A DNA stretch of 64,000 bases, taken from NCBI GenBank assembly GCA_030141605.1, contig JAQGDQ010001052.1:3465-67464 (forward strand), given 5' to 3'. The position numbers and the translations under genes are program-made. Positions 616 through 63,621 of this stretch are shown here, piece by piece. The stretch comes from Tubiluchus corallicola (taxonomy: Eukaryota > Animalia > Priapulida). Numbering within the stretch: position 1 is the stretch's first letter; each line of letters opens with the position of its first letter. A model generated the notes under the pieces. It searched no databases. It worked only from the letters and a program-made list of their open reading frames with translations, and had not been told where the DNA came from.

Positions 616-3600
616 CTGCAAGTTTAATATGTTACATTTATTATGAGCTGCGTGACCTTGATGTGTGACCTTGATGCATGACCTTGATGTGTGACCTTGA
701 TGCATGACCTTAATGAATGACCTTGATGTATGACATTGATGTACAACCTTGATGTGTGACCTTGATGTATGACATTGATGTACAACCTTGATGTGTGACC
801 TTGATGTAGGATGTTGATGTACAACCTTGATGTGTGACCTTGATGTAGGATGTTGATGTACAACCTTGATGTGTGACCTTAATGTACGACCTTAATGCAC
901 GACCTTAATGTGTGACCTTGATGTAGGATGTTGATGTACAACTTTGATGTGTGACCTTGTTGCACGACCTTAATGTGTGACCTTGATGTGAGACCTTTAT
1001 GGACAACCTTGATGTTTGACAATGATGCACAATCTTGATGTGCGGTCCTGATGTATGATCTTGATGTGTTACCCTGATGCACGACCTTAATGTGTGACCT
1101 TCATGTGTGATCTTAATGTGTGACCTTAGTGTGTGACACTGATGTGTGACATTGATGTGTGACCTTGATAAATGACCTTGATGTAAGACCTTGATGTGAG
1201 ATACAATGAGATCATACGTTCTACTCTTTTACACGTTCCACATGAATAAATTTGCTGTTGTAACATTTGGTAAGAACATAAAAAACACCACAAATCACAG
1301 TAGAGTTACTAGAGTATGAATTAATCTAATAGTAACACTACATTAATAACAAAGTCTGCCCTTCCCTTCCTTCGTATGGAGGATCAGAAACAAGATCCAA
1401 TGTACTTAGTACATCTCCAAGTACTACTACAGAATTGTCAGTGCTACTCTATAAAAAGCTGATACAGCTAGAGAATAACAGGAGATGACAGATCAGGTAC
1501 TTACTATGGAGGATCAGAAACAAGATCCAATGTACTTAGTACATCTCCAAGTACTACTACAGAATTGTCAGTGCTACTCTATAAAAAGCTGATACAGCTA
1601 CAGAATAACAGGAGATGACAGATCAGGTACTTACTATGGAGGATCAGAAACAAGATCCAATGTACTTAGTACATCTCCAAGTACTACTACAGAATTGTCA
1701 GTGCTACTCTATAAAAAGCTGATACAGCTACAGAATAACAGGAGATGACAGATCAGGTACTTACTATGGAGGATCAGAAACAAGATCCAATGTACTTAGT
1801 ACATCTCCAAGTACTACTACAGAATTGTCAGTGCTACTCTATAAAAAGCTGATACAGCTACAGAATAACAGGAGATGACAGATCAGGTACTTACTATGGA
1901 GGATCAGAAACAAGATCCAATGTACTTAGTACATCTCCAAGTACTACTACAGAATTGTCAGTGCTACTCTATAAAAAGCTGATACAGCTACAGAATAACA
2001 GGAGATGACAGATCAGGTACTTACTATGGAGGATCAGAAACAAGATCCAATGTACTTAGTACATCTCCAAGTACTACTACAGAATTGTCAGTGCTACTCT
2101 ATAAAAAGCTGATACAGCTACAGAATAACAGGAGATGACAGATCAGGTACTTACTATGGAGGATCAGAAACAAGATCCAATGTACTTAGTACATCTCCAA
2201 GTACTACTACAGAATTGTCAGTGCTACTCTATAAAAAGCTGATACAGCTACAGAATAACAGGAGATGACAGATCAGGTACTTACTATGGAGGATCAGAAA
2301 CAAGATCCAATGTACTTAGTACATCTCCAAGTACTACTACAGAATTGTCAGTGCTACTCTATAAAAAGCTGATACAGCTACAGAATAACAGGAGATGACA
2401 GATCAGGTACTTACTATGGAGGATCAGAAACAAGATCCAATGTACTTAGTACATCTCCAAGTACTACTACAGAATTGTCAGTGCTACTCTGTAAAAAGCT
2501 GATACAGCTAGAGAATAACAGGAGATGACAGATCAGGTACTTACTATGGAGGATCAGAAACAAGATCCAATGTACTTAGTACATCTCCAAGTACTACTAC
2601 AGAATTGTCAGTGCTACTCTATAAAAAGCTGATACAGCTACAGAATAACAGGAGATGACAGATCAGGTACTTACTATGGAGGATCAGAAACAAGATCCAA
2701 TGTACTTAGTACATCTCCAAGTACTACTACAGAATTGTCAGTGCTACTCTATAAAAAGCTGATACAGCTAGAGAATAACAGGAGATGACAGATCAGGTAC
2801 TTACTATGGAGGATCAGAAACAAGATCCAATGTACTTAGTACATCTCCAAGTACTACTACAGAATTGTCAGTGCTACTCTATAAAAAGCTGATACAGCTA
2901 CAGAATAACAGGAGATGACAGATCAGGTACTTACTATGGAGGATCAGAAACAAGATCCAATGTACTTAGTACATCTCCAAGTACTACTACAGAATTGTCA
3001 GTGCTACTCTATAAAAAGCTGATACAGCTAGAGAATAACAGGAGATGACAGATCAGGTACTTACTATGGAGGATCAGAAACAAGATCCAATGTACTTAGT
3101 ACATCTCCAAGTACTACTACAGAATTGTCGGTGCTACTCTATAAAAAGCTGATACAGCTACAGAATAACAGGAGATGACAGATCAGGTACTTACTATGGA
3201 GGATCAGAAACAAGATCCAATGTACTTAGTACATCTCCAAGTAATACTGCAGATATGAATCCATTTCCTGCAAATATTCAAATCACAACTACAGTCGGTA
3301 ATACAATGTTCACGGGATGCAAATATTTTTACCTATTAAGCGTGTTTCGTACTATCCATTACGTATATTCCTACTAATGTTTTTTCAACGATAAAATAGC
3401 AGTTACACATAGGGTTATCATACGTCCGGATTTCCCCGGACACATCCTCTTTTTGGGCCTCTGTCCGGGCGGGTTTTCAAAAAATCGGCAGTTTGTCCGG
3501 GTTTTGCCTCAATCCGTAAGTATGTACGAACGTTACCAACTGCAGAGGCGTACGACAGGACGAGACAAAGAAAAGCTCGTTAATTTTCAATACAAGATGT

Positions 3601-25600: not shown

Positions 25601-28600
25601 GTTATGAGTGTATTGGAAACATTCGTTACTTTGTTGTTACTAAACTACTTTATTTCTGTCTTCAGGGCTGGCAGGAATGTAGAACAGCCAATATGTGCTC
25701 ATACTACAACTCATTAGCTGCAGCAGAGAGATGCAGAATTGAAAATTTAGAACCGTTTGACGAATATGAAGAATGGCACCTTAAGTGCAGTCATTACGTC
25801 GTGACGGTAGCGGCAAACGGAAACGGCTGTTCGTTGCTTCATGTAAGTTCTGGTAAGAAAGTGATCAGTTATCATGAGTTTTGGTTTGTTCGTTGCTTCA
25901 TGTAAGTTCTGGTAAGAAAGTGATCAGTTATCACAAGTTTTGGTTTGTTCGTTGCTGAATGTAAGTTCTGGTAAGAAAGTGATCAGTTATCATGAGTTTT
26001 GGTTTGTTCGTTGCTGCATGTAAGTTCTGGTAAGAAAGTGATCAGTTATCATGAGTTTTGGTTTGTTCGTTGCTGCATGTAAGTTCTGGTAAGAAAGTGA
26101 TCAGTTATCACGAGTTTTGGTTTGTTCGTTGCTTCATGTAAGTTCTGGTAAGAAAGTGATCAGTTATCATGAGTTTTGGTTTGTTCGTTGCTGAATGTAA
26201 GTTCTGGTAAGAAAGTGATCAGTTATCATGAGTTTTGGTTTGTTCGTTGCTTCATGTAAGTTCTGGTAAGAAAGTGATCAGTTATCACGAGTTTTGGTTT
26301 GTTCGTTGCTTCATGTAAGTTCTGGTAAGAAAGTGATCAGTTATCATGAGTTTTGGTTTGTTCGTTGCTTCATGTAAGTTCTGGTAAGAAAGTGATCAGT
26401 TATCATGAGTTTTGGTTTGTTCGTTGCTGCATGTAAGTTCTGGTAAGAAAGTGATCAGTTATCATGAGTTTTGGTTTGTTACTAACTGAAGTTGTAGCTT
26501 AAGCGACATTTCTTCTGCTGTCTTGATTCTTCCTTTTGTTTCTCTTCTTTTTGTTCTTGTTCTTGTGATTGTTCTACTTGCCGTTCTGGTGATTTATTTA
26601 CGATACATTTCAATGGATTTCAGTTCGTGTTTTAAACCTTTTTTGGAAGCCTTTCCTAGATGCTTTCTTCGCAATATTAATTTACTAAATGTTTTTTTAA
26701 TAAATAAACTTTTTATGTCAGAATAATAGGTGTGCGGTAAAAATGGCACAGGTAAAAATGACACCAAAAAATACACAAATGGAAAAGTAAGGAAAAATAT
26801 GTGTCACGTATATTATTTTGATGCAAGTGATTTCTATAATAAAACTAGAATGTGCTCTATAGATCTCTGCCAAAGCTATACAGTTTTAAACTTATTCTTC
26901 TGATTCTTTTGATAAAAAAATTAACACACACACATATATATAAACAAGCAAACATACAAGAATGTATCTGTATTGGTATTATATAGACTAGCAAAATATT
27001 TGTTCATTAAATAGATTTATAATCAATAATGCGTAAATATTCCACGTAGTGTTTAAAATATCTATCTTTTTCATCATTGATTTCCGCCATGGTAATAGAC
27101 TGACAGATACATACATACCAAGTTAACTTATAAGGCTATACAAATTATTAAGCAAAGGTTATAGACTGTGCCATTTTTACCGTGGCAGTTTTTTCCTGTG
27201 CTCTTTTTACCTGTGCCATTTTTACCTACATTTGTCAGAATGGATTTTTTTTCTGATATTAACGCTTTTATTGTTGCATAAATTCATCATATCGTCTCTT
27301 TCATGTATGTTTTTCTGTACTGCACTGGTATGTTAATTGTGTAAGTTTTGCGCTATCTAAATGTTTGCAATTATGGCTAGTTTTATGCTCTATAATTATT
27401 TCATGTATATTATTTCAGGAAATTCCTCAAACTACTCTACTAAATTATGAGCCATACACAGAGAATAAACTCCAGAGGTGGCAGTTACGTAGTCATTCGG
27501 AATTTCAAGCAAAAATGTTTGGCCACTGCAGCGTAGAGATTGATGGGGTAGCATTCGTTGTGGGTGGCTTTGGAACTGTGGGGTCTGATAGTGAAAAACA
27601 CCAGAGATTATCTAATGTATTGGCAGTGGAAATGCAAAGTGGTTCTTGGACCAACTTGAGTCCTCCAGTAAGGGAATGTGGTATGAAAATCAACTGTTCT
27701 ATAGTTAAAGTCCCGTCTAGACTATCATGCACGCAGGATGATATGTTGCGCATGCGAGTGAATGACACTCAAAAGCGAGGATGTTGACCTGCCCGAATGA
27801 CGGCTTTCCATGATACCAGTGAAATTCAATGTGCACATGTGTTCCCGATAACTTTTTCCCAGTTAAGATTTGCCCAATCAGAGGCCCAAACTTTGTCACA
27901 TGACTATTAATGTTGTTGTAGAGTTCTGTTTTCAATTTGGATAACCGATTAGTCTAAACGCAGGATTCATATAATAATAACAATAATAATAATAATCTTT
28001 ATTTAAAGTCGGCTTTTGGGTCAACAATTAACATTAGCTCAAAGAGCTATCATCGCCGACTGTAAATAACAACCTACATCTACATAACAGAGACTATTAT
28101 TACCCCACTTTTTACCCTAAATACCACACGTCAGGCAGGGCAACAGCAGGTACCATTTTTGAAGTTTTTGGTATGACCCGGCCGCTGGTTCGAACTCACG
28201 ACCTCCCAGACGGAAAGCAGATGCGTTATCACTAGACTAAACCGTCTGGTCAAATCATCAGGAATGCAAGATATGCAAGAATGATAACTTTGAGTGTCAC
28301 TGACTCACAGTTTTAACACGTGGTAGTCTAGACTAGGAATTATTTAAGAATTCTGAAACAACGTCGCCGTAGAAAACAAAACTAGTAAACTGAAGTTTTG
28401 TGCTTGAACGTTTGAAAATGAAGTTTCGTTCAAAGTGTTTTTGTGTTTTATTTTCCAGAATTTGCCACGCTTACAAAGTTGTGTGAAAACTTAATACTTC
28501 TGGGTGGACGAACGTCTCCGCTTAAACCTCTTGTCACTGTGACATCTCTGCAAGCTCAGCAACTTTTATCTGACTATGCTGTGAAAAGATTTTGCAGTGT

Positions 28601-45200: not shown

Positions 45201-48200
45201 GCGAGACAAAGGATGTTATGAGGTCACCAAAGATCGGTAAACAAACATCGCTAACTAAAGATGCTTTCAGTAGTGTTTGGGCTTTACGGTGACAAAAACA
45301 AAGTCATCATTTCTTGCTTAGCATAACAGTTTATTGTTTGTATACAATCTTCACGTCATGTGCCCCTTAGTCATTTACTTCATATCTGACACTGAGACGC
45401 CATTACCCAAAATTATACATTTTATCTGAAACGAGATATATGAATTTCTTTAATAAACTAATTCATTTCTTATCAAAAGATCGATTACGATTACGTGAAA
45501 TTAATGAGAGACTTACAGTAAATAACTAAATAAAATTTACATATATCGTTGGCATTAAATCGTGAGTTACACAGAAACACGTCATCACATGAACACATTG
45601 AAACTTGAATGACCGAAAATTGACTAAGATGCAAATATTGAAGCCAGATGTCGCCACTTGTAACTGTAAAACACTATATTAAATTTAACAAACAAAAAAC
45701 CTTGACATGTAGGCTGTACGTCATTCTCGCTCACTCATGCCAAAGACGTGAAACGTGACGATCTTTACGACATTGCAAGCGTTCGAAATTCACCAGAAAA
45801 AAGTTTGTTATTTAATTTAAAGCCTCTTTTGTTCAATAATAACTACGAATTCTTTGTATAATCGTAATAATGTGTTAAAAAAGTTCAGTGTCTGTTGGGT
45901 CTATATAGATGTTTAAGCATATATTCTTGGAGAAAGAGGTGGCAACAGAATCTGTCTCTGTTTTTTACCAGGAACGTGTGTACTGGTCACCAGGTTATTC
46001 CACAATCTTCCCGTAAGAAAACAGTTTTGCACAAACAAACAGAATTTGTATTTGTTTTTTACCAGGAACATGTGTACTGGTCACCAGGTTATTCCACAAT
46101 CTTCCCGTAAGAAAACAGTTTTGCACAAACAAACAGAATTTGTATCTGTTTTTTACCAGGAACGTGTGTACTGGTCACCAGGTTATTCCACAATCTTCCC
46201 GTAAGAAAACAGTTTTGCACAAACAAACAGAATTTGTATCTGTTTTTTACCAGGAACGTGTGTACTGGTCACCAGGTTATTCCACAATCTTCCCGTAAGA
46301 AAACAGTTTTGCTCAAACAAACAGAATTTGTATCTGTTTTTTACCAGGAACGTGTGTACTGGTCACCAGGTTATTCCACAATCTTCCCGTAAGAAAACAG
46401 TTTTGCACAAACAAACAGAATTTGTATTTGTTTTTTTACCAGGAACGTGTGTACTGGTCACCAGGTTATTCCACAATCTTCCCGTAAGAAAACAGTTTTG
46501 CACAAACAAACAGAATTTCTGTCTGTTTTTTACCAGGAACGTGTGTACTGGTCACCAGGTTATTCCACAATCTTCCCGTAAGAAAACAGTTTTGCACAAA
46601 CAAACAGAATTTGTATCTGTTTTTTACCAGGAACGTGTGTACTGGTCACCAGGTTATTCCACAATCTTCCCGTAAGAAAACAGTTTTGCTCAAACAAACA
46701 GAATTTGTATCTGTTTTTTACCAGGAACGTGTGTACTGGTCACCAGGTTATTCCACAATCTTCCCGTAAGAAAACAGTTTTGCACAAACAAACAGAATTT
46801 GTATTTGTTTTTTTACCAGGAACGTGTGTACTGGTCACCAGGTTATTCCACAATCTTCCCGTAAGAAAACAGTTTTGCACAAACAAACAGAATTTCTGTC
46901 TGTTTTTTACCAGGAACGTGTGTACTGGTCACCAGGTTATTCCACAATCTTCCCGTAAGAAAACAGTTTTGCACAAACAAGAAGAAACGAAGCACAGAAT
47001 TGAACAAGGTCATAGAGCTTCTTCGTGCTTACGGTCTGGTTTACCCGCGAGTTCGTTTAATTCTGAGACACGACAGGGACGTTGTTTGGCAAAAAGATGT
47101 TTTTCACGACACGCGATCGTCACTATCGTCGTTGCTTGGTGTTGACCTGGCAAATAGTTTAGAGCATGTCAAACTGTGCAGAGATCAGGTTTGTAATATT
47201 TGATCTCATTGAGGTAAGATTTGAGTTTGGCTTGTCGTCAGGTAAGGAAGTACAATAGGTGACATTTATTAGACTCACGGTTAATTGACTCAATCGCTTA
47301 ATTGACTCAAAAACATCTAGTACGGGCCGCTTCTGTTCAAATGTACATAAAAACTGTTGGTAATTGACTCAATATTTTTACTTCATATACTTAAAATAAG
47401 ATACTTGTGTGTGCCCAAAGAGCTTTTATTGCTTGCATATCATCTTTATATTGATTTTATGTATTAAATATTGACTATAATATACATATAAACAGTCATG
47501 TTAAGTACAGCTTTGTTTGTAAGCAGATACAATACGTTTATCACATGCACTAATATGTTAGCTTAGCGGGTTTGCTTTGAATCTGTCACCCGCTTGTCCA
47601 CTGCAATTAACCTCGTTGTTTCTGGAAGCTAAACATTTAATCACTTGACCAGCGGTTTGCTTTGAATCTGTCACCCGCTTGTCCACTGCAGTTAACCTCG
47701 TTGTTTCTGGAAGCTAAACATTTAATCACTTGACTAGCGGTTTGCTTTGAATCTGTCACCCGCTTGTCCACTGCAGTTAACCTCATTATTTCTGGAAGCT
47801 AAACATTTAATCACTTGACCAGCGGTTTGCTTTGAATCTGTCATCCGCTTGTCCACTGCAGTTAACCTCGTTGTTTCTGAAAGCTAAACATTTAATCGCT
47901 TGACCAGCGGTTTGCTTTGAGTCTGTCACCCGCTAGTCCACTGCAGTTAACCTCATTGTTTCTGGAAGCTAAACATTTAATCACTTGACCAGCGGTTTGC
48001 TTTGAATCTGCTACCCGCTTGTCCACTGCAGTTAACCTCGTTGTTTCTGGAAGCTGAACATTTAATCACTTGACCGGCGGTTTTGCTTTGAATCTGTCAC
48101 CCGCTTGTCCACTGCAGTTAACCTCATTGTTTCTGGAAGCTAAACGTTTATTCACTTGACCAGTGGTTTGCCTTGAATCTGTCACCCGCTTGTCCACTGC

Positions 48201-51200: not shown

Positions 51201-54200
51201 GACAAGATACATTTCATGTCAGCAACGTTGGAAACTTTGTATAGGCTTCACACTGAATACGTTTGTTCAAACATTTCAAAAGCTTTTAATGAAAGTTTCA
51301 TAAGGAAACCATTTGTTTAAGCATTTCAAAGCTTTCTAGAATACATCTGACTAATCTTGAACAAAACGAACGTTTCTAGTACGGGTTGTTCACACTGAAT
51401 ATGTTTACTCGTGGATTTCTAAACTTCCAGTTTAAGTTTCACAGCGAAAACGTCTACTTTCAAATTTACTGTTCATTGTTGTGCAATAATTTAGCTTTGA
51501 CGTTGAGTAACAACTCAAGACATTCTACTGGATAAACGTTTAGTATTAATTTATTGAATTTTAAGCACCTGGGTGCAAACTTTTCTGTGCAACCTGTAGA
51601 TCGGTAGTTAGACTAACATGTCGTTAATTAAGTTTTTAACTTATTATTTAATTATTAGAAATACTTTGGCATTATCGTATGTGTTAAAATATATACATTT
51701 AACCATACTTCAAAATGATATGAAAAATCATCCTGTTTTGCTTTAAATGTAATAACTTGCTTGCATTGAAAATCACCATAGATACAGGGATGAGAATTTT
51801 CCGTGGATACGCGGAATTCCGAGTTTTTGGAAGACCAGTAGTGCCACTTTTGTAAATCGCGTAAATTCGTTGAGAAAATTTTTACGGACCCAGTACATTA
51901 TTTCGCAAGCTGGCCGCTAGGTGGCAGGCCGTCACTTTGTTTACATCACGTACATCAGTGTAACCACGTGTATATCTTTATGTGTAAAAATATAGAATCA
52001 ATTGTGTGGAGTTATTTGAGTCAATTGCAGACAGTTTTTATAAACTTTTGCATAAGAGCAGCCAGTACTTAGGCGTTTTTGAGACAATTAGGTATCATGT
52101 ATCCTTGATAGTTGGATATTTTAAATTATGCATGAAACAAGGTAATTGATATTGTAAGTCCACTTAGAGGCTCTCTATGGCCACAAAATTGCAATTTGTT
52201 GCTGGTTCCAAGGGGGTTTCCCTTGAACCCCATTGGGGAAGGCCCCCAAACCCCCGGCCTGTTTCAGAGTTTTTTGCAATTTGTCATTCTCATCCCTGTA
52301 GATGTTGAAAATGGGTGAAATTGATAAAAACCCATTATCTTTAAAATCTTGTATCTAATCCATTCCATGAACTTAAATAAATATTCATAATTTTAGGCGT
52401 TAAAGCGGCACTTTTTCTCAGTTCACTCGTGCAAAGTAGGTAGCTCTTTGCGACATCCCGTTGCGCTACTTTTCATCACAGTGCCACCTGCAGGCGTGGA
52501 CGTGAACTTAGAACCGAACAAAACTAAAGTGCTTCTTCAAGAAAAGGTAATGTGTTGGACTATTAAACGTTCTTGCATTTTCATAAGCACAATTGTTCAT
52601 AGTGTTCTAAGTGTATTTTGCTTGATCAATTTGGCATTTGATTGGTCGGTTTGTTGATTAGCTTGTTTATACATTAAAACATATTGTAAATATAGGTATT
52701 AGGATAAATAGATAAAATAGATTGAGAAAGTATGCTAACTAATTTGTTAAAATAGATTCTTCTTTCGATGAGTTTTTTTATTACTGCTAATTGTAAATTA
52801 TTTTATGAAATTTGTTTTGTACTGATAAAGTCCAATCAGTGAAAATGAAGCAAAATTTTCACTTAGGTGCGTATTGATGTATCTCAGAGTATAAAGAGTC
52901 AAGAAAGTTGGTGAAAAGGCACCAGTTCTTTGAAAACATGCTCAGGGGAGCAGTTGCTCCCCTTACTCCCCCTTAATAGCTACGCCCCTGGTATAAACTG
53001 CAGCAAGGAACTGTTACATTATTAGCGTGGCATTGAAAATGATGATTTTGTTACAGGACGGTGTTTTTGCTATGTTTGAAGAATGTTTAGTCAAAGTGTA
53101 TGGACACCCTGCTGTGAAAACATCTGTGCAAGGTGCTAGAGCAACTTCAGTAGAAGTGGAAGAAGCCACTTTCAAGTGCAGTGCATTTAGTTTGAGTAGT
53201 GACCACACTGACCACACTCTCCGGGATGATGCAACTACTAGCAATGATGTCGAGGCAGGTGCTAGTGTTCAAAACAGAACCGACGTTACACGGTGTGATG
53301 TTGCGACCGCTATAGATTTGCAACATGGTGTCGAGGCAGGTGCTAGTGTTGAAAACAGAACCGACGCTACACGATGTGATCTTGCCACCGCTAAAGATTT
53401 GCATAATCTTGTTGAGACAGGTACTAGTGTTCAAAACAGAACCGACGCTACACAGTGTGATCTTGCCACCGCTAAAGATTTGAAAAATGTTGTTGAGAAA
53501 AGTAGTTCTTTGAATAACGCAAGCAGGAGAGAAGAGAATCGACAATCGTTATGCAAAATTGCACTTACAGACTCTCACACGGATGCGAAAAAATATGAAG
53601 TTGACGAATATAGACCACTCTGTGATTTTCCGTGCAGTTTTGACGACGACTTAGTGGAAGATTTGACTCTAGAAGAAGATGATTTATTGAGAAACGTGTC
53701 AGACGTTCTCGAAGAAGCAGCGTATTTTGAAAAACCTCGTGCTGAGATGACGGAAAATTGTGCAGGCGATATTGGTGATGTTTATGCTAGTGGGGCAGCA
53801 ACTGAGTGCGAGTTTCATAATAGCATTAAAAATACTGAAGTAATTAGTGATGCTTATCACAGTGGTGAAGCCAGGTTCAATGTCCAACTAAACACAACTA
53901 AAACATCCTCGCATTCGTTAGCAGATTCTGAAGCAGCAGCCCCCGCGCTGTCGGTTGACCTTGAATCTTGGACTTGCGGACGTGCATTTGTGGATCAAAC
54001 TAAGCAACCAGTGGAGGTATGAATAGTTTTTGTAGGAACGTGTGAAGATGGACATGATAGAGACGAAACCACTTTGATGGCTTCTTTTCTCACCTGTATT
54101 TAGGCTTGTTACTGAACAGCAATGCTTCCATACATGGTGATATGTACCTGTATCATTATAATATGGATAATTAATATTTACATGCTTGAGCATTTGCTGA

Positions 54201-57200
54201 TAAAAGAAATGTGAAATCATTGAAGCGTACAGTAGATTGTACTGTAGATACGTAACAATCAATGCAGCGAGCGTACCATTAGTTCACTTAATGAGCTAAA
54301 TCAGCAAAGTGTTAACTCTTTCGGGACAGCACCATTCAAAATTGGTCTTATGAGACCTATGACTTTTGTACTACTGTATGAGCACAGACATAACTAAATG
54401 ATTACAAATTAGGTACTGTTCTGTTCAGGAGAATCTCTGCTATCCAATCATGCTATTTGTTTAAACATTTATAAGTGATTTAATTGGATAAAATTAAGAA
54501 AAACACGCCCATTTTCAGGCTCTCCAACTTAGCCTATTGAGTAGCTTAGCCTGGTGTACACTTGTGTGATCTCACACACTATTTTATTGATCACCTGCTT
54601 GCTACAGTCCAGAGAAATGTCTGCTGTACAGAGTTCCAGGAAAACCTAACCGATCATCCTAGGAGAAATTAAGATCATCTCATCTTTTAACCGGAATTTC
54701 TAATTAAAAACAGAGCAGACTTGAGGTCAAAGTGTTTCAGAGTGTTGTGTCTCTGGATAGTTGAAATTTTCTGCATTAACCAATTTTGTACAAGTGATAC
54801 TGTACATTGTTACAGTGCAAAGACTGCAGTTACTGGCAGATTTGTTCCATTCTTTGTCAAAAATCAGTTTTAGTTTGTCTAGGATAAGCAAATGCATTTC
54901 ATATATAATTTTGCATGAAAATCCATCGTGTGAGGAGTAGAAACCTACAAAAGTTATGGAATATAACGTCATCGCTGCTTAGTGAGAGCACTTTTCATGA
55001 ACCCGTGTAAAATTCAGCAAACTCTTACAATCCTGAAGGAATTAAAAAAGGCTGACCTGTAACGTGAATAAGTTAATTAGTTAACTACATTTTTGCATAT
55101 AAACTATTGAAATGATAAACCTGAATCTGAAAATGCAATAGGATCTTTTAATTTAAAGTATTGAAATGGTTTGCTTTTCTGATGGATTACGCTGTAAACT
55201 TTACACACTAATGAGTGAAAATTGAATACCATGTTGAGTTTTTTAGCATTTACCATTCACAAAATTGATTGTCGACAAATATATTTAGCATTTTATTTAT
55301 AAAGCCTGCATAAATTAACTCGCGTATCGTGATACATATCATATCATGAGGTTCGTATCGTGATACATATCATATCATGAGGTTCGTATCGTGATACATA
55401 TCATATCATGAGGTTCGTATCGTGATACATATCATATCATGAGGTTCGTATCGTGATACGTACGTGTGTCATGACCTAAGTGTATCGTTACAGTCTTTAG
55501 ACAGGGACTAATTTATTCATTTTTTGTTTATGACTTAGCCTGTTAAAGTTTTCACTTCGGATGCAGCGCCAATCAAACGTCTTCCTTCGTCTCCGTCTGA
55601 CGGGAACGCTTTGAAGAAACAAAAGATCAATCGAAGCCAGACAACTTTGTTTGAGTCGTTTAATAGAGAAAGTATCAAGCAGTCTCCGTCGTCGTACATT
55701 TCGTTTTGCAATCATACCCGTCGCAAAAGTACGTTTATTTCTAAAATATCTCAGCATCAATTTCTGTACGTAGAGCTTCCGTATTAATATTCAAGTAATG
55801 CAAGTCCTCGCTTAACAACGCTAATGGGTTCCAACAAAATGTGATGTTAAGCAAAACGTCATTAAATGAAGCCAAGACTTCCGTAGAAAGTAATGTAAAA
55901 CAATTGGGATACGTTCCGGAGACAAAAATCAATCCTGCTTGACTCATATTTGTTAAACATTCTATGAGTTTTATTCATATTTCTACTGATTAATGTCTTC
56001 CTGTTTGCCTAAAACCACCTATATATTTTACTTACCAATACCTAGCTATAGCGGTTTCTATAGTAGGTTAACGTTTAAGCCTAGCCAGGGGTTAAACAAT
56101 AAACACTGAAGAGTCTAACCCTGGTGTGACCTTGAGAATTTTACCTACATACTTAGTCTGGTTGCTATAGCAACAGGTTGCAGGCAAAACTGCCCGCTGG
56201 TCACTTGATACTTGATACAAACCGCTAGTAATACAGTAGTAACATAAGCAGTCAGTAGGGAAACAAAAACATGTATAATAATTGCTCTGTTTACGTTATT
56301 AGTGCATTTCTAGAACTGAATAATGCGATAGGTACTGTTTTAATGCATCAAATTAGGTAAAAATTTTGTTGCTCAAATAAAAATTTGCCTTGAACAAAGT
56401 AAAAAGTTCGTTGTTAAAGTGAGACGTGTGTCGTTTAGTGAAAAAAGGGGTCAAATGATCGGCGTCATTAAAACGAAACATCGCTAAACGGGCAGTCATT
56501 AAGCGAGGACTTACTGCAGTCATCTTGTAAATACTTTCATTTGTTAATGCATTTTCTAATTTCTTTTAGGGATTCCAGCTTCCAACGCTTTTTTTATTTA
56601 TGAAAATCCTCTAACTACACATTGTAAAATCAATTTGCCACATTGCTAAAACACTTGTCATTTATTTATTAGTAATAGAGGAAAACCTGGGTGCCGACTT
56701 CAAACAAATCGGAAATCTTCTGAACAAAAAATGGCAAGAATTATCCGACGATGAAAGAAAGTCTTACAGAAATTTACCCAGCCAAGGCTTGCCAGGGTGA
56801 GTACTGTTCACATGTGAAGTGATGCCGGGGTGAGTACTGTTCAAACGTGAAGTGATGCCAGGGTGAGTACTGTTCAAACGTGAAGTGATGCCGGGGTGAG
56901 TACTGTTCAAACGTGAAGTGATGCCGGGGTGAGTACTGTTCACATGTGAAGTGATGCCAGGGTGAGTACTGTTCACATGTGAAGTGATGCCGGGGTGAGT
57001 ACTGTTCAAATGTGAAGTGATGCCAGGGTGAGTGCTGTTCAAACGTGAAGTGATGCCAGGGTGAGTACTGTTCAAATGTGAAGTGATGCCAGGGTGAGTA
57101 CTGTTCAAACGTGAAGTGATGCCAGGGTGAGTACTGTTCAAATGTGAAGTGATGCCAGGGTGAGTGCTGTTCAAACGTGAAGTGATGCCAAGGTGAGTAC

Positions 57201-60200
57201 TGTTCAAACGTGAAGTGATGCCAGGGTGAGTACTGTTCAAATGTGAAGTGATGCCAGGGTGAGTACTGTTCACATGTGAAATTTTAATGTTGGTGTACGC
57301 AGTTATCAATGTCCCGCTTACATAAATTTCTACTATTTACAACATTAATCTGCTTGCCCAAGAATCATCTAAGCGGTAAATTGCAAAAACTCTTTCTCTC
57401 TCGCGTATGTTACAAGAATTCCGCCATGTTGGACATTCTTGCTGGCGTGTGCTAGATTTGAACCACGCCTCTTACTCGTGTAATACTTGGAGTTTGCACA
57501 CTTGGTGACTCCAAAATGTGTGAGTAAACGTGATATGATTCGGAGGCGATAATTGTCTCGTAGCTCTTTCTTTAAAAATTGAATTTTGTTGTTCAAAAAC
57601 TTCTTCAAACATTCAAAAGGGTTCATCATTTATTCACTTACTGAAGAAATACAAAGTTGAGTGAATTGCTATGATGATATAACGGGTTTAGAGTTGGGCA
57701 ATTTCTTCATATTAGTTCATCATGTATATTTGATGTTTTGTTATATGTATGACGTCACCGGGAACGGTTAACCTGCCACATTTAATAACATTTAAACGGT
57801 TAGCTGAAAAGCTTAACCATCTCACCTCTAAGATGAGGCGGCTTTCTGGGTGTTAACAAGATTTTTTGTTTGTTTCACAGCTGCAGTAAAAAGAAAAGTC
57901 GTACTCCGACCAGCACAAAGTTACTTAAACAGAAGAATTCTAAGAAAGCGCCACCTGAACATGTAACAGAACAACTTATTTTACTTTGATTACAGTTTTT
58001 GTGTTTGAATAGCAATAGGTTTAGACCGTGCGCTAGAAATAGATCTCATAAACAAAAATTATGTTGTTAATCAAATAGTTATCTCTATTTTGAAGATAAC
58101 TCCTTCACTTTTGACTCATCTTTGCATCTAACTTTATTATTTTTGCTGTTTTTGAGGCTTTCATTTTGGTAGCCCTCGTGTAAGGAACCAAGTACTGGGT
58201 TATATCAAATCTCTAAACAAACTTTTTGTGGTACTTGCACTTTAACTACCACGATTGTAATGGTTTGATACATTATATACAGCATATATACAATTTTACA
58301 CCTACGTAGAGCAAAAACTTGGGCATTTATAACTAAGGGCAGTAGTATCATCATGTAGAAAAAATTCAGTGTTTGTAGACATGTTTTTCATGAATCTGAT
58401 CTGTATTTGTGTGCTTGAATAGCAGTATCGTCCACAAGTCGGCAATTGAGTTTTTCTAGTTATTCACGGTATCCTGAATCTCCATTTCACGAGGATCATT
58501 TTGATGCCAAGCTCATTGCTCTATGTTGTTTCTAAGCTGAGATAATCCACGTTGAAGTTGAGGTGCAGGCTGGGCACTGAGAAACATGATCTTGAGAAAA
58601 TCACTGTTAAAGTCAGCCATTGTTTTTTACTTAGCAACCGCACAAATGTTGGTTGCTACGGACTTTGCAAGAACACATTGAAGTTACATTTAAATCCAGT
58701 AGATGGCTCTTTTTGACAAAGGTCTGGGTTTGGCAACAGAAAAAACCCGAAGCAAAATGGACTGCTTCCACGAGCTACTTCACATTTGAAAATACAAGTT
58801 TTTCACAATTTCAGTACTAGTTTCTAACCTGAAAAGTGGGTACAGGATTTTAAAATTTGATTTTTAGTGTTTTTTGAACATTTTCTTGATAATTTGATCC
58901 TAGTTTGTTTTATAAAAAACAAAAAAGACATTTGACCAAAGTTTTGGTTCATCCTACTTTCAAGCATCATAACGTAGTTTTAACTATGCTGACTTACGGA
59001 CGGCTTTGATTTACAAGCACACATTTCGTTCTTCAATCACAAGTGATAATTGATAAATATGTTTTAGAAATATTTCTAACATTATCTTTAATATTTGTTT
59101 CAGTGCTAATTAAATTTTATTTTGTTGATTTTAGAGAGGAACTAGACCGATTATCGATTTACTCAAATCTGCTGCAAAGACTGGTCAGCCAATCGCAAAC
59201 AAGTCACTGCTTCGAAAAGTAATCAGCATTCCATTTTTCGCGGTCAGCTTAAGAGAAAGGTTAAAAGAACATTCTAGTCGTCGGTAAGATTTAAACCATA
59301 CACAAAAATACACAAAACTATTTATAGTTTCAAAAAGTACTTGAAAAGGACCATTTTTGATTTATACTTATAATACCTCTATGTAAATTAAACATACACT
59401 GTGGTCGTTTCTTCTCCTCTTTTCCTTCTTCCTATCCCTAATCTTACTATTTTTTTCCATTCCATCATGTCTACTAACCCTAACCATTCTTTCATTCACT
59501 CATCCTCCCCTCCCTTCCTTCTTCCTATCACTAATCTTACTATTTTCTCCATTCCGTCATGTCTACTAACCCTAACCATTCTTTCATTCACTCATCCCCT
59601 CCTCCCTTCCTTCTTCCTATCACTAATCTTACTATTTTTTCCATTCCAGCATATCTACTAACCCTAACCATTCTTTCATTCACTCATCCTCCCCTCCCTT
59701 CCTTCTTCCTATTCCTAATCTTACTATTTTCTCCATTCCATCATGTCTACTAACCCTAATCATTCTTTCATTCACTCATCCTCCCCTCCCTTCCTTCTTC
59801 CTATCCCTAATCTTACTATTTTTTCCATTCCAGCATGTCTACTAACCCTAACCATTCTTTCATTCACTCATCCCCTCCTCCCTTCCTTCTTCCTGTCCCT
59901 AATCTTACTATTTTTTCCATTCCATCATGTCTACTAACCCTAACCATTCTTTCATTCACTCATCCCCTCCTCCCTTCCTTCTTCCTATCCCTAATCTTAC
60001 TATTTTTTCCATTCCGTCATGTCTACTAACCCTAATCATTCTTTCATTCACTCATCCTCCCCTCCCTTCCTTCTTCCTATCCCTAATCTTACTATTTTTT
60101 CCATTCCATCATGTCTACTAACTCTAACCATTCTTTCGTTCACTCATCCTCTCCTTCCTTCCTTCTTCCTATCCCTAATCTTACTATTTTTTCCATTCCA

Positions 60201-63200
60201 TCATGTCTACTAACCCTAACCATTCTTTCATTCACTCATCCTACCCTCCCTTCCTTCTTCCTATCCCTAATCTTACTATTTTTTCCATTCCATCATGTCT
60301 ACTAACCCTAACCATTCTTTCATTCACTCATTTCTGCCACCCTAACAAGCCAAGCTTTCAAGGTGTCATACAGCAACTCTTTTATTTGGTTAATTTGACT
60401 TCATCAACGTTTTTTACCCATACTGTTTCTTTTTGTTTCAATAATATTGTATGTTGATGTATTGTATATGTATTGCTGGAGTGAAATAAATTGATTGATT
60501 GATTGATTGAACCAGGCTTCATAGACTTACACAACCAGGCTTCATAGACTTACACAACCAGGCTTCGTAGACTTACACAACCAGGCTTCGTAGACTTAGA
60601 CAACCGGGCTTCATGGGCTTACACAACCGGGCTTCATAGACTTACACAACCGGGCTTCATAGACTTACACAACCGGGCTTCATAGACTTACACAACCAGG
60701 CTTCATAGACTTACACAACCAGGCTTCGTAGACTTACACAACCAGGCTTCGTAGACTTACACAACCAGGCTTCGTAGACTTACACAACCGGGCTTCATGG
60801 GCTTACACAACCGGGCTTCATGGGCTTACACAACCGGGCTTCATAGACTTACACAACAATTGTCCTGCAAACTTTTACATGTATGAATTTGTCATTCGCA
60901 TTGCGGATTCTTCAAGAGAGCTTTAGTGACTGTAGTAAACTATTTTGAACACTTTGAGACCGGAAAATCTGTTCTAGTTATGCGAAAGTTCGAGTTAGAT
61001 GAATGTTTGAGTTAGACAATGTTGGTAAGAAAACAAGATTGAGTCACTCATCAACGTCGGGCAATACACTAGTAACACTACAGGCTGTGAAAATGACAAA
61101 CTTAGCCTTTAATCAAATATCAAACAACAATTTTTATAAATAATGAAAAATAAAATGACTGGTCCACCTCTATTGTAGTCTGAGTAGCATGGTTAATAGA
61201 ATTCAGCAATAATAATATTGTGATCTACATTAAACTACGTTTGCTAAGCCATGTTGTATGCAGCGTTCTGCCAAGGTAATACAAGAAATCTTAGAATTTT
61301 TGCTGAAACAAGCAGTTAAAATTGTAATGCGGTGCAGCCTTTCCTGTTCAGCGTTCTGCTAAGGTAATACAAGAAATCTTAGCATTTTTGCTGAAACTAG
61401 CAGTTAAAATTGTAATGTGGTGCAGCCTTTCGTGTTCAGCGTTCTGCTAAGGTAATACAAGAAATCTTAGAATTTTTGCTGAAACTAGCAGTTAAAATTG
61501 TAATGTGGTGCAGCCTTTCGTGTAGGATTGCTCACTTGGGAGATTGTTCAAGATAGGTGGGGTAATTTCAATCAGATTCTTAAGAATTATATCGGAAATT
61601 CGGCTCGAGTTACACGGTAAAATGAGTTACACACTTCAAGGCACACGATGTTTGTTAAAGAGAAAATCTGTTGAGCGAGATATGTTTGAGATACGCAAGA
61701 ATTTGAGTTGTAGCAGTTCAAGTTACACGTAGTTTACTGTACTTGTTGAAATGTATGTGATTTTTAAACGTGTTTGAATAGTTTTCTTACTAGTCTTATA
61801 CGACTTATTTAGTCATTTATTTGTTTTCTTTACTGTGAATATCGAGAAAGTGACCACTCTTGTGTATTAAATAAAAAAATTGCTATACCACTTACTACGT
61901 TGTTTTAAATGTTCATTTAATCAAATATTGCAATGAAGTAGTAAGTACGTTTTTGCATGAGATGGATATAAAATTGGCAATTAAGATTGTGTACACAGGC
62001 TGCCCAGAAATCACAAGGTTGTGGGTTCGAGTCCCAGGAGCGGTACAATATTTTTCAGACTTTCTTAATTGTGTTACTTTCTTAGGCTAATTTAGTATTG
62101 CTTTCGTTTGTCTATATGACTGTAGTTGAAAGAGCCTAGAGTTGTCAAATGTCGGAAAAAAATCAATTAACAAATTGATTTTTCATTGAAACGGTCAATA
62201 TCTTCACATTTAGAAAATTTAAAGATCCAAATTTTTTTATTAAAATTCCACCATGTTAATCATCCTGTTGTCTGGATTCTATGAATCTCGGGTATCACCT
62301 GTTGTCAAAGTGAAAACATCGCAGGAGGCTGATGGTATTAACTGTTTTATATGTTACGTTTCAGTCAACCAAGTCAAACTAAGGAATGTGGGATACATCC
62401 AGAACTTATCGGTCAACTGGGAAGTGATGATGTGTGGTTGTGTAGAAATGGGAAAGATATTCAGGTGTTTCATCCCTACAGGGCTCTGGAGTGCATCTAT
62501 TTTTCTAAGCTGATGGAAAACCACAAACTGCCCATTCAGCCTCTGGACTTACCTGTAAATTTAACTGAAAGGTACGTGGACTTACCTGTAAATTTAACTG
62601 AAAGATACGTGGACTTACCTGTAAATTTAACTGAAAGGTACGTGGACTTACCTGTAAATTTAACTGAAAGATACGTGGACTTACCTGTAAATTTAACTGA
62701 AAGGTACGTGGACTTACCTGTAAATTTAACTGAAAGATACGTGGACTTACCTGTAAATTTAACTAAAAGGTACGTGGACTTACCTGTAAATTTAACTGAA
62801 AGGTACATGGACTTACCTGTAAATTTAACTAAAAGGTACGTGGACTTACCTGTAAATTTATCTGAAAGCTACGTGGACTTACCTGTAAATTTAACTAAAA
62901 GGTACGTGGACTTACCTGTAAATTTAACTAAAAGGTACGTGGACTTACCTGTAAATTTATCTGAAAGCTACGTGGACTTACCTGTAAATTTAACTGAAAG
63001 GTACGTGGACTTACCTGTAAATTTAACTGAAAGGTACGTGGACTTACCTGTAAATTTAACTGAAAGCTACGTGGACTTACCTGTAAATTTATCTGAAAGC
63101 TACGTGGACTTACCTGTAAATTTTCACCAATAACGACCAAAAATGGCTGAAAGAGTGATTCACACATTGCGAATCATAGATCACGCATCACACATTGCGA

Positions 63201-63621
63201 ATCATAGATCACGCATCACACATTGCGAATCATAGATCACGCATCACACATTGCGAATCATAGATCACGCATCACACATTGCGAATCATAGATCACACAT
63301 CACACATTGCGAATCATAGATCACGCATCACACATTGCGAATCATAGATCACGCATCACACATTGCGAATCATAGATCACGCATTACCTGAACACGGATT
63401 CGTAACTTTGACTAAAAAAGGTGATCCATTCTGTAAAATTAAACAACGATTTGTCTGTGGTTTTAATGATCAAATTCTATTATTTGATTTTAGTTCAGTG
63501 GGCGGTAACATTTCTTGGCAAAAACTACTCTCCCTTTCATCACAGCGAAGCAGCATGCAGTCCAGCTACCTGACGGATGATCGACTCGTAGCTAATGGTT
63601 TCAAGATTGAAGTTAAAGAAG
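40555..63621 (+). CDS. PMS1: PMS1 homolog 1 (MutL family: GHKL ATPase, transducer domain, HMG box), multi-exon; continues beyond window
   Basis: Exons 40555-40686, 41572-41705, 43560-43711, 46914-47188, 50294-50413, 52397-52546, 53057-54016, 55539-55728, 56673-56796, 57881-57962, 59135-59283, 62365-62571, 63494-63621, all in phase. Motifs: [80 protein letters not shown], an HMG box (specific to PMS1 among MutL proteins), and [18 protein letters not shown]. Confidence 0.95.
40735..41468. mobile_element. MITE family C copy 2
   Basis: Shares internal blocks such as GTGTTGTGTCTGGATAGTTGAAATTTTCT with the other two copies. Confidence 0.72.
41572..41705 (+). CDS. PMS1: PMS1 exon 2
   Basis: [19 protein letters not shown]...[11 protein letters not shown]. 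Confidence 0.95.
42376..43420. repeat. 92-bp tandem repeat, ~11 copies
   Basis: TGTAATTACATTACAATATGCGATG recurs every 92 bp. Confidence 0.96.
43560..43711 (+). CDS. PMS1: PMS1 exon 3
   Basis: [12 protein letters not shown]...KPSHLET(G). Confidence 0.95.
43781..44400. repeat. ~103-bp tandem repeat, 6 copies, spanning a TE end and its flank
   Basis: CCAGTCCAATTGCAATAAACAG recurs; the unit includes the AGTTTACAATT terminus. Confidence 0.93.
45944..46980. repeat. 94/95-bp tandem repeat, 11 copies, spanning the PMS1 exon 4 acceptor
   Basis: TTTTTTACCAG|GAAC with exon-start positions at 45972, 46066, 46160, 46254, 46348, 46443, 46537, 46631, 46725, 46820 and 46914. Confidence 0.97.
46914..47188 (+). 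CDS. PMS1: PMS1 exon 4 (acceptor amplified in the 94-bp array)
   Basis: [45 protein letters not shown]...VVWQK...RDQ. Only the 11th acceptor gives this intact frame. Confidence 0.9.
47565..49112. repeat. 85-bp tandem repeat, ~18 copies
   Basis: AGCGGTTTGCTTTGAATCTGTCACCCGC recurs every ~85 bp. Confidence 0.96.
49880..50184. mobile_element. MITE family D copy 3 (partial)
   Basis: Shares GTTCCCAAGCAAGATCCTGCTAGTAAATC and other blocks with the other copies. Confidence 0.68.
50294..50413 (+). CDS. PMS1: PMS1 exon 5
   Basis: [10 protein letters not shown]...[17 protein letters not shown]. Confidence 0.88.
50828..51277. repeat. 163-bp tandem repeat, ~2.7 copies
   Basis: TTAAACACTTCTCAGAGACTAAGG occurs three times. 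Confidence 0.93.
51785..52298. mobile_element. MITE with nested family E fragment
   Basis: 13-bp TIR CAGGGATGAGAAT, flanked by TA. Confidence 0.7.
52397..52546 (+). CDS. PMS1: PMS1 exon 6
   Basis: [31 protein letters not shown]. Confidence 0.93.
53057..54016 (+). CDS. PMS1: PMS1 exon 7 (large disordered linker with 3 x 27-aa repeat)
   Basis: 960-nt open exon [16 protein letters not shown]...[16 protein letters not shown]. Confidence 0.9.
53249..53497 (+). repeat. 81-bp coding tandem repeat x3 within PMS1 exon 7
   Basis: [21 protein letters not shown] repeated three times. Confidence 0.92.
54312..55045. mobile_element. MITE family C copy 3
   Basis: TTAACTCTTTCGGGAC...TCCTGAAGGAATTAA. Confidence 0.75.
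55325..55460. repeat. 31-bp tandem repeat, ~4 copies
   Basis: Unit GTATCGTGATACATATCATATCATGAGGTTC. Confidence 0.9.
55539..55728 (+). CDS. PMS1: PMS1 exon 8
   Basis: PVKVF...[18 protein letters not shown] (first half of the HMG box). Confidence 0.82.
56673..56796 (+). CDS. PMS1: PMS1 exon 9 (donor amplified in a 33-bp array)
   Basis: [31 protein letters not shown] (second half of the HMG box); donor GG|gtgagt. Confidence 0.88.
56790..57280. repeat. 33-bp tandem repeat, 15 copies, spanning the PMS1 exon 9 donor
   Basis: Unit TGCCAGG|GTGAGTACTGTTCAAATGTGAAGTGA. Confidence 0.96.
57881..57962 (+). CDS. PMS1: PMS1 exon 10
   Basis: Lys-rich CSKKKSRTP...; phase 2 to phase 0 bridges its neighbours exactly. 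Confidence 0.65.
59135..59283 (+). CDS. PMS1: PMS1 exon 11
   Basis: [12 protein letters not shown]...[17 protein letters not shown]; phase 0 to phase 2. Confidence 0.72.
59410..60330. repeat. 92-bp pyrimidine-rich tandem repeat, ~10 copies
   Basis: CATGTCTACTAACCCTAACCATTC recurs every 92 bp. Confidence 0.95.
60510..60857. repeat. 23-bp tandem repeat, ~15 copies
   Basis: Unit AACCAGGCTTCATAGACTTACAC. Confidence 0.95.
60931..61741. mobile_element. Tc1/pogo-like MITE containing an internal 88-bp x3 tandem repeat (61261-61522)
   Basis: Imperfect TIR AGTAAACTA...TAGTTTACTGTA, with subterminal (TTC)GAGTTA repeats. Confidence 0.55.
62365..62571 (+). CDS. PMS1: PMS1 exon 12 (3' end and donor amplified in a 33-bp array)
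   Basis: LIGQL..VWL...[33 protein letters not shown]; first donor AG|gtacgt. Confidence 0.88.
62544..63123. repeat. 33-bp tandem repeat, ~17.5 copies, spanning the PMS1 exon 12 donor, in frame
   Basis: Unit TGGACTTACCTGTAAATTTAACTGAAAG|GTACG; translates as ([11 protein letters not shown])n in the PMS1 frame. Confidence 0.97.
63161..63385. repeat. 28-bp tandem repeat, ~8 copies
   Basis: Unit CACACATTGCGAATCATAGATCACGCAT. Confidence 0.95.
63494..63621 (+). CDS. PMS1: PMS1 exon 13
   Basis: SVGG...[18 protein letters not shown]. Confidence 0.88.

What the first reader, a model, noticed from the sequence alone, without database searches (positions are those of the whole stretch)
62544..63123. 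PMS1 exon 12: in-frame ladder of alternative donors that could encode a variable-length ([11 protein letters not shown])n insert
Seen: the 33-nt unit is the last 28 nt of the exon plus GTACG, a multiple of 3 with no stop in the PMS1 frame. Ten of the 17 units keep AG|GT (donors after 62571, 62637, 62703, 62769, 62802, 62835, 62901, 62934, 63000 and 63033). Seven have the donor G changed (AG|AT or AG|CT). All surviving donors share phase 2, so any of them splices in frame to exon 13 and adds 0-14 x 11 aa. The donor +1 position is one of very few variable sites in the unit and alternates on/off in the first six units. Inference: this may be a splice-selectable protein VNTR in a MutL C-terminal region, or donor decoys being purged.
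Basis: partly seen in the sequence, partly recalled or inferred. Interest (0 to 1): 0.8.

Follow-up and report, generated by a model that had tools for sequence, protein, structure and literature searches.

The report
Minisatellite copies a PMS1 splice donor
A 33-base tandem repeat in an animal PMS1 DNA-repair gene copies the end of an exon together with its splice signal 17 times, a layout already known from human F7 and CBS, and it is likely a by-product of a repeat-rich genome in which the first signal would still be the one mostly used.

Summary
There are 17 units of 33 nt (plus a partial unit) at 62544-63123: 10 with AG|GT, 3 AG|AT and 4 AG|CT. All 10 GT donors would splice in frame to exon 13. 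The 'splice-selectable protein VNTR' is unsupported, and no RNA could be tested. The window holds 23 long minisatellites (26% of bases). Five straddle a splice site, against 1.9-2.5 expected by chance; this is not significant once the finding itself is excluded. An in-frame, stop-free unit has about a 0.2 chance per donor-straddling array. The first donor gives a PMS1 colinear with 13 of 16 homologues, inside a predicted MutL C-terminal domain. The seven dead donors trace to two mutant alleles that were re-amplified. Precedents are F7, CBS, 6-16, LMNB2 and PDGF, where only the first or the first few donors are used (PMC1557585). One oddity is left: the four other splice-straddling arrays keep all 47 extra GT/AG copies, and every tested use of them gives a premature stop. 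Only this stop-free array has lost donors (P 0.03; 0.08 across five arrays). That hints weakly at selection where nonsense-mediated decay cannot help.

The parts
62365..62571 (+). PMS1 12th modelled coding exon (207 nt), ending at the ancestral phase-2 donor AAG|GTACGT
   Evidence: 13-exon model open for 934 aa; phmmer hits named PMS1; tblastn
62544..63123 (+). 33-nt minisatellite, 17.6 copies; unit = 28 nt exon end + 5 nt intron start
62569..62577 (+). First (ancestral) donor; top-scoring of 32 modelled donors in the window
   Evidence: 10.8 bits, small leave-one-out matrix; colinearity with homologues
62635..63039 (+). Nine extra intact GT donors (units 3,5,7,8,9,11,12,14,15), all in frame; unit 8 weakened at +5
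62602..63105 (+). Seven dead donor copies from two alleles: +1 G>A (units 2,4,6) and +1 G>C (units 10,13,16,17)
62547..62555 (+). 9-mer in every unit that is the exact reverse complement of the donor consensus; predicted to pair with the donor
   Evidence: duplex -7.1 kcal/mol with the intact donor, -0.5 with +1 mutants; no copy elsewhere in the window on either strand
63131..63133 (+). First in-frame stop after the array (retention of this intron gives a premature stop)
63494..63621 (+). PMS1 13th modelled coding exon (phase-2 acceptor); homologues run on, so the gene likely continues beyond the window
56790..57280 (+). Internal control: another 33-nt array across the PMS1 exon-9 donor; 14 of 14 extra GT intact; use gives an immediate stop
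45944..46980 (+). Internal control: 94-nt array across the PMS1 exon-4 acceptor; 11 intact acceptors, only the last gives an open frame
25828..26480 (+). Internal control: 59-nt array across an LCMT2-like donor; 10 of 10 extra GT intact
1375..3253 (-). Internal control: 130-nt array across a MINDY3-like donor; 13 of 13 extra full copies with GT intact

Best explanation
The array is a tandem duplication of the last 28 nt of PMS1 exon 12 plus 5 intron bases, one of many minisatellites in this window, and splicing likely uses mainly the first donor so that normal PMS1 would be made. Shown: the anatomy; the open frame; colinearity of the first-donor product with homologues; and four sibling arrays across other splice sites with all copies intact. 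Inferred steps: (1) a local duplication happened to include the donor and was expanded by slippage or unequal exchange; (2) the frame is open because 28 of 33 nt are copied coding sequence and the length is 3n; (3) two point mutations at +1 were spread by the same turnover, giving the on/off pattern; (4) as in human F7, the most upstream donor would win, with at most minor leakage to the next intact copies (+66 nt first), as reported for CBS and 6-16.
For: 23 long arrays cover 16,515 of 64,000 bases and lie in 8 of 12 PMS1, 4 of 10 LCMT2-like and 2 of 8 MINDY3-like modelled introns. Five of 23 straddle a splice site against 1.87-2.48 expected; without this finding P(>=4) = 0.10-0.21. 501 of 782 simulated 33-nt donor-straddling units are stop-free; multiplied by 1/3 for 3n this is about 0.21 per array and about 0.6 for at least one of four donor arrays (my arithmetic). 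The four sibling arrays keep 47 of 47 extra GT/AG copies. Every tested use of them (9 donor cases, 10 acceptor cases) gives a premature stop, yet the three gene models are open, so the exon-proximal site likely dominates in this organism. The first-donor product has no insertion against 13 of 16 homologues. Eight of 31 homologue hits run on as R-Y at this point, which I read as read-through of a conserved intron. Literature: PMC1557585.
Against: No transcript evidence either way, so donor choice is extrapolated from mammalian genes to an unidentified animal. The extra donors are as strong as the first and are top-ranked in the window. In 6-16 and CBS two pseudo-sites are used as well. Donor-killing alleles occur only in the one stop-free array (2 of 5 alleles versus 0 of 19; P 0.032, or 0.079 over five arrays), and a third allele hits +5 (P 0.015 for >=3 of 5 at four key positions chosen after the fact). 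With the finding included, straddling is borderline enriched (P>=5 = 0.03-0.09).
Confidence: 0.72

Rival explanations
1. Selected silencing: downstream donors leak, the in-frame products would escape nonsense-mediated decay and give a defective MutL C-terminal domain, so units with a dead donor were favoured, starting with unit 2.
For: It is the only array of five with GT loss and the only one whose use is stop-free. There are two different +1 alleles plus one +5 allele among five alleles. The nearest copy (unit 2) is dead, which parallels the title of Yang et al. 2000 on CBS (seen only in the reference list). The insertion site follows strand E130-139 in a region of pLDDT about 94-96 in a homologue model.
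Against: Only two events; P 0.079 over five arrays, and P 0.10 once 4 of the 5 changes being at G is allowed for. Nine extra donors remain intact, including unit 3. Only 0.63 hits were expected in the other four arrays, so their zero says little.
Confidence: 0.15
2. Functional splice-selectable protein repeat: the ladder is used and tunes PMS1 through 11-residue inserts in the C-terminal domain.
For: All 10 donors are strong or moderate and in frame. The junction falls in a short predicted loop (residues 140-146 of the P0011 model), just after a QxLxxP-like stretch (QPLDLP).
Against: No homologue has such a repeat (0 of 16). Four of 5 unit variants are non-synonymous, as expected without constraint. 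The in-frame state is expected by chance. The stricter PCNA-motif consensus Qx-phi-[L/I]xP (PMC8495741) is not met, and the repeat does not copy the Q.
Confidence: 0.06
3. Mildly harmful allele: competing donors, or the donor-complementary 9-mer in each unit, divert much of the splicing to downstream donors, exon skipping or intron retention, lowering normal PMS1.
For: The first donor has low predicted accessibility (9th lowest of 32 by mean unpaired probability) and pairs with the 9-mer at -7.1 kcal/mol. Skipping exon 12 (207 nt) stays in frame. F7 minigenes skip the exon when upstream sites are inactivated.
Against: The whole region folds only modestly better than shuffles (z -1.85, 20 shuffles). 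Accessibility does not separate the first donor from the others. The first donor is intact.
Confidence: 0.05
4. Assembly artefact: the array length or unit order is wrong.
For: Only one haplotype was seen and no reads were available; the metagenome scan gave only three isolated 20-21-nt matches.
Against: Units carry ordered, recurring variants, the flanks are unique and the window holds no N.
Confidence: 0.02

Closest known systems
Human F7 intron 7 37-bp minisatellite (PMC1557585; abstract, Introduction, one Results section and Discussion read)
   Same: The first unit spans the exon-intron boundary, so identical donor copies follow the authentic one.
   Different: The F7 unit has 4 exonic + 33 intronic nt, is not 3n, and has 5-9 copies; only the most upstream donor is used (shown there). 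Here the unit has 28 exonic + 5 intronic nt, is 3n and stop-free, has 17 copies, and usage is untested.
Human CBS intron 13 31-bp VNTR (described in PMC1557585; Yang 2000 and Lievers 2001 seen as reference titles only)
   Same: 15-20 repeats across an exon/intron border; a substitution in the second repeat is reported in the title to prevent multiple alternate splicing, and here unit 2 also has a dead donor.
   Different: 31 nt shifts the frame, and two pseudo-sites are reported as used. Here 7 of 16 extra donors are dead and the rest are in frame.
Human interferon-inducible 6-16 intron 2 minisatellite (described in PMC1557585; Turri 1995 not held)
   Same: An authentic donor followed by many (25) pseudo-donors in a minisatellite.
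   Different: [quoted passage not shown]
LMNB2 100-bp and PDGF intron 4 81-bp minisatellites (one sentence each in PMC1557585)
   Same: Donor-reiterating minisatellites.
   Different: Longer units; only the authentic donor is reported as used.
Coding VNTRs (mucin or aggrecan type; recalled)
   Same: A 3n, stop-free unit that could encode a peptide repeat.
   Different: Those repeats lie wholly within an exon and are always translated. This one lies in the intron unless a downstream donor is chosen.

Membership tests
Donor-reiterating minisatellite (F7/CBS/6-16 type) | Tandem array with unit of about 10-100 nt | tested here: met
   33 nt x 17.6
Donor-reiterating minisatellite (F7/CBS/6-16 type) | First unit spans the authentic exon-intron boundary | tested here: met
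   Open 934-aa model and colinearity with homologues; the boundary is inferred from homology, not from RNA
Donor-reiterating minisatellite (F7/CBS/6-16 type) | Downstream units repeat the donor sequence | tested here: met
   9 of 16 extra units keep GT, and 8 are identical to the first over -3..+6
Donor-reiterating minisatellite (F7/CBS/6-16 type) | Splicing uses only the first or first few donors | not testable with these tools
   No RNA holder was listed for this gene
VNTR | Copy number varies between alleles | not testable with these tools
   No genome held; no second allele found
Protein-coding VNTR | Unit is 3n and stop-free in the gene's frame | tested here: met
Protein-coding VNTR | Repeat is present in mature mRNA or protein | not testable with these tools
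   No RNA or proteome data
Protein-coding VNTR | Unit variation constrained at the peptide level | tested here: inconclusive
   4 of 5 alleles are non-synonymous and none is nonsense; too few to separate from the neutral 69/22/8 of 99
PMS1 (MutL-beta subunit) | Similarity to named PMS1 proteins across N-terminal and C-terminal exons | tested here: met
PMS1 (MutL-beta subunit) | MutL-type C-terminal fold around the junction | tested here: met
   Tested on the homologue P0011, not the window protein: Foldseek E 4e-8 to yeast MutL-alpha C-terminal chain 4fmn_B

The most novel reading that the evidence does not exclude
In this minisatellite-rich animal, arrays often copy splice sites. Out-of-frame copies are tolerated because nonsense-mediated decay removes mis-spliced RNA, but in-frame copies such as this one leak into protein and are silenced by selected +1 mutations. 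PMS1 intron 12 would then be a caught-in-the-act case of selection on repeat units through splicing, with a residual +66-nt-first ladder of PMS1 isoforms, and the genome would be a natural test bed for first-donor scanning outside mammals.
Probability: 0.15. Interest if true: 0.6.

Novelty: new member of a known kind. Interest (0 to 1): 0.27.

Why it matters
As a single locus it is one more donor-reiterating minisatellite, a class described in human genes since the 1990s (PMC1557585). Its value is as a test system. Five splice-straddling arrays in 64 kb suggest many across the genome, which would allow two questions to be tested at scale in a non-mammalian animal. One is whether the most exon-proximal of many identical splice sites is always chosen, a rule that PMC1557585 showed for one gene. 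The other is whether in-frame copies, which decay of nonsense mRNA cannot remove, lose their GT faster than out-of-frame ones. If the ladder were expressed, it would add variable inserts to a mismatch-repair subunit.

Tried and rejected
RNA: no RNA holder was listed for the PMS1 exon-7 stretch; one run (X1, RNA status a guess, share 0.00) was offered by species label. X1 laid on 62250-62576 gave 0 of 70,053 contigs. An indirect test on the LCMT2-like gene gave no result. None of this is evidence on expression. No whole genome is held, so no genome-wide count could be made. Word-based homologue searches with exon 12 and exon 4 found nothing at E<=0.001; phmmer found 31. A metagenome scan for a 20-nt unit motif gave 3 single matches with no extension beyond 21 nt, judged chance. 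Pfam did not detect the short PMS1 exons (0 of 4). Enrichment of arrays at splice sites is not significant without the finding. Structure-based masking of downstream donors was rejected because accessibility is similar for the first and later GT donors. Hairpin-breaking as the reason for the +1 variants was rejected because AG|CT units are predicted more paired, not less. The 52-, 54-, 47- and 68-nt arrays first looked as if they straddled splice sites but do not in the final models. Earlier-findings look-ups returned nothing. Paper searches: searches gave PMC1557585, one search gave PMC8495741 and one search gave PMC10078293 (passages read, not on point). Searches listed no invertebrate case, and searches returned zero papers. 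Turri 1995 is not held. Supplements were not opened.

Full report
Observation. The repeat is as described. It has 17 full 33-nt units at 62544-63104 and a partial 18th to 63123. Ten keep AG|GT at the listed positions, three read AG|AT (units 2, 4, 6) and four AG|CT (units 10, 13, 16, 17). Only columns 21, 24, 29 (donor +1) and 33 (donor +5) vary, with five alleles in all. Joined to the acceptor before 63494, all ten GT donors give stop-free translations, adding 0, 2, 4, 6, 7, 8, 10, 11, 13 or 14 units. Read-through of the intron stops at 63131.

The gene. A 13-exon model from 40555 to 63621, with GT-AG introns set by eye, is open for 934 residues. phmmer with exon 12 found 31 proteins at E<=0.001. 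Of the 10 looked up, 7 representatives are named PMS1 or PMS1-like, from rodents, an oyster, Lingula, a sea urchin, a lancelet, elephant shark and one metagenome protein; 2 are 'hypothetical' and 1 is unnamed. Identity is at most 47%, so no close relative was found and the organism stays unidentified beyond being an animal. With the first donor, the product aligns across the junction without insertion to 13 of 16 homologues. Of the other three, one has a 20-residue insert that looks like intron read-through, one is four residues shorter and one is not alignable; none repeats the motif. Eight of the 31 hits continue R-Y at exactly this point, which I read as gene calls running through a conserved phase-2 AG|GTA donor. 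The first donor is therefore likely the ancestral one. A model of homologue P0011 (25-sequence alignment, mean pLDDT 77) matches MutL C-terminal domains (E 4e-8). The junction lies in a short loop right after strand 130-139, where block pLDDT is 94-96, and the repeated peptide corresponds to that strand.

Context. TRF gave 56 rows. I kept 23 arrays (score at least 140, one row per array) and dropped short, weak and redundant rows. They cover 16,515 bases. I modelled two more genes to get splice sites: an LCMT2-like gene (718 aa plus stop; Pfam LCM and Kelch) and a MINDY3-like gene on the minus strand (352 aa, partial; PF13898 in 5 of the 29 minus-strand ORFs scanned from 1-13.7 kb). Five of the 23 arrays straddle one of 63 junctions: this one, the PMS1 exon-9 donor, the PMS1 exon-4 acceptor, an LCMT2-like donor and a MINDY3-like donor. 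Random placement of single units in the collapsed window expects 1.87-2.48. P(>=5) is 0.03-0.09, and without the ascertained array P(>=4) is 0.10-0.21. A 33-nt donor-straddling unit is stop-free in 501 of 782 simulated cases. With a 1-in-3 chance of 3n, about one in five such arrays is an 'in-frame ladder'. The layout needs no special explanation.

Internal controls. In the four sibling arrays, every extra full copy keeps its GT or AG: 14 of 14, 10 of 10, 13 of 13 and 10 of 10. The terminal partial MINDY3-like copy ends at the exon end without a GT. Using copies 2-4 of the three donor arrays, or any of the 10 upstream acceptors, gives a premature stop. As the three gene models are otherwise intact, the exon-proximal site likely dominates in this organism; this is an inference.

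The +1 variants. Seven dead donors come from two alleles. G>A sits in a GT/AT dimer repeated three times, and G>C mostly travels with the column-21 change (3 of 4 copies). Two of five alleles at the GT has P 0.032 for this array, 0.079 for any of five arrays, and 0.10 given that four of the five changes are at G. The other arrays have 0 of 19 alleles at the dinucleotide, with 0.63 expected. This hints at selection but does not demonstrate it. It is notable that the only array with dead donors is the only one whose mis-splicing would carry no premature stop, and that the nearest copy is dead. Four of five alleles are non-synonymous in the would-be peptide, against 69 non-synonymous, 22 synonymous and 8 nonsense changes among 99 possible, so there is no sign of protein-level constraint.

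Donor strength and structure. AAG|GTACGT scores highest among the 32 modelled donors on a small leave-one-out matrix (10.8 bits), and the unit-8 variant scores 7.2. Each unit also carries a 9-mer (62547-62555 in unit 1) that is the exact reverse complement of the donor consensus, that is, the same sequence as the U1 snRNA 5' end (recalled). It encodes part of LDLP, occurs nowhere else in the window, and pairs with the intact donor at -7.1 kcal/mol against -0.5 for the +1 mutants. Predicted accessibility is low for the first and later GT donors alike, and the region folds only modestly better than shuffles (z -1.85). I treat it as a curiosity that may have helped seed the duplication; this is untested.

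Expression. It could not be tested; see Tried and rejected. Donor choice is the open step.

Known systems. PMC1557585 (abstract, Introduction, first Results section, Discussion and reference passages read) describes minisatellites whose first unit spans an exon-intron boundary. In F7 only the most upstream of 5-9 identical donors is used, and inactivating sites one by one activates the next one, with rising exon skipping. In 6-16 and CBS two pseudo-sites are also used; in LMNB2 and PDGF only the authentic site is used. The CBS report of a silencing substitution in the second repeat was seen only as a reference title. The array meets the three structural features of this class, while usage and polymorphism were not testable. 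PMC8495741 (passages) gives the QXLXXP PCNA motif of yeast Pms1 (the PMS2 orthologue, recalled). QPLDLP just before the junction fits the loose form but not the stricter one, and positional equivalence was not tested. Eight paper searches listed no invertebrate or PMS1 case, but most subscription papers are not held.

Verdict. The feature is real and correctly described, and it is a new member of a known kind. The most likely reading (0.72) is a by-product of minisatellite turnover with mainly first-donor use. Selected silencing of in-frame copies gets 0.15 and a functional ladder 0.06. Interest 0.27.

Noticed in passing
window 1375-3253, 25828-26480, 45944-46980, 56790-57280: Four more minisatellites straddle splice sites (MINDY3-like donor, LCMT2-like donor, PMS1 exon-4 acceptor, PMS1 exon-9 donor) with all extra GT/AG copies intact; together they form a natural test set for splice-site choice.
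   Followed up: yes
window 62547-62555 and each later unit: Each unit holds the exact reverse complement of the donor consensus (U1 5'-end-like, recalled), predicted to pair with the neighbouring donor; on the minus strand this is a perfect donor repeated about 18 times.
   Followed up: partly
window 53243-53497: An 81-nt, 3.1-copy in-frame repeat inside the large PMS1 exon 7 gives a true 27-residue coding repeat in the linker region.
   Followed up: no
window 1375 and 63123 (array ends): The MINDY3-like and PMS1 exon-12 arrays both end in an exon-derived partial copy followed by unique intron sequence, and the MINDY3-like one stops exactly at the exon end. This suggests seeding by a templated insertion or a terminal deletion rather than simple microhomology.
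   Followed up: no
window 31282-32414: A 54-nt (3n) array starts 90 nt after an LCMT2-like donor and is open in frame for about 480 codons from the exon, so intron retention would read far into it.
   Followed up: no
window 13779-15929 (-): A 716-aa stop-free reverse-transcriptase ORF (PF00078, E 4e-35), likely part of a LINE-type retrotransposon.
   Followed up: no
window ~8030-8760 (-), ~40770-41470 (+), ~54320-55060 (+): An interspersed element of about 700 nt appears by eye in three introns; not aligned or classified.
   Followed up: no
window 62365-62571: Exon 12 is 207 nt, so skipping it would also stay in frame.
   Followed up: partly
window 19922-20038: A degenerate TTAGGG-like array lies in an LCMT2-like intron.
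   Followed up: no
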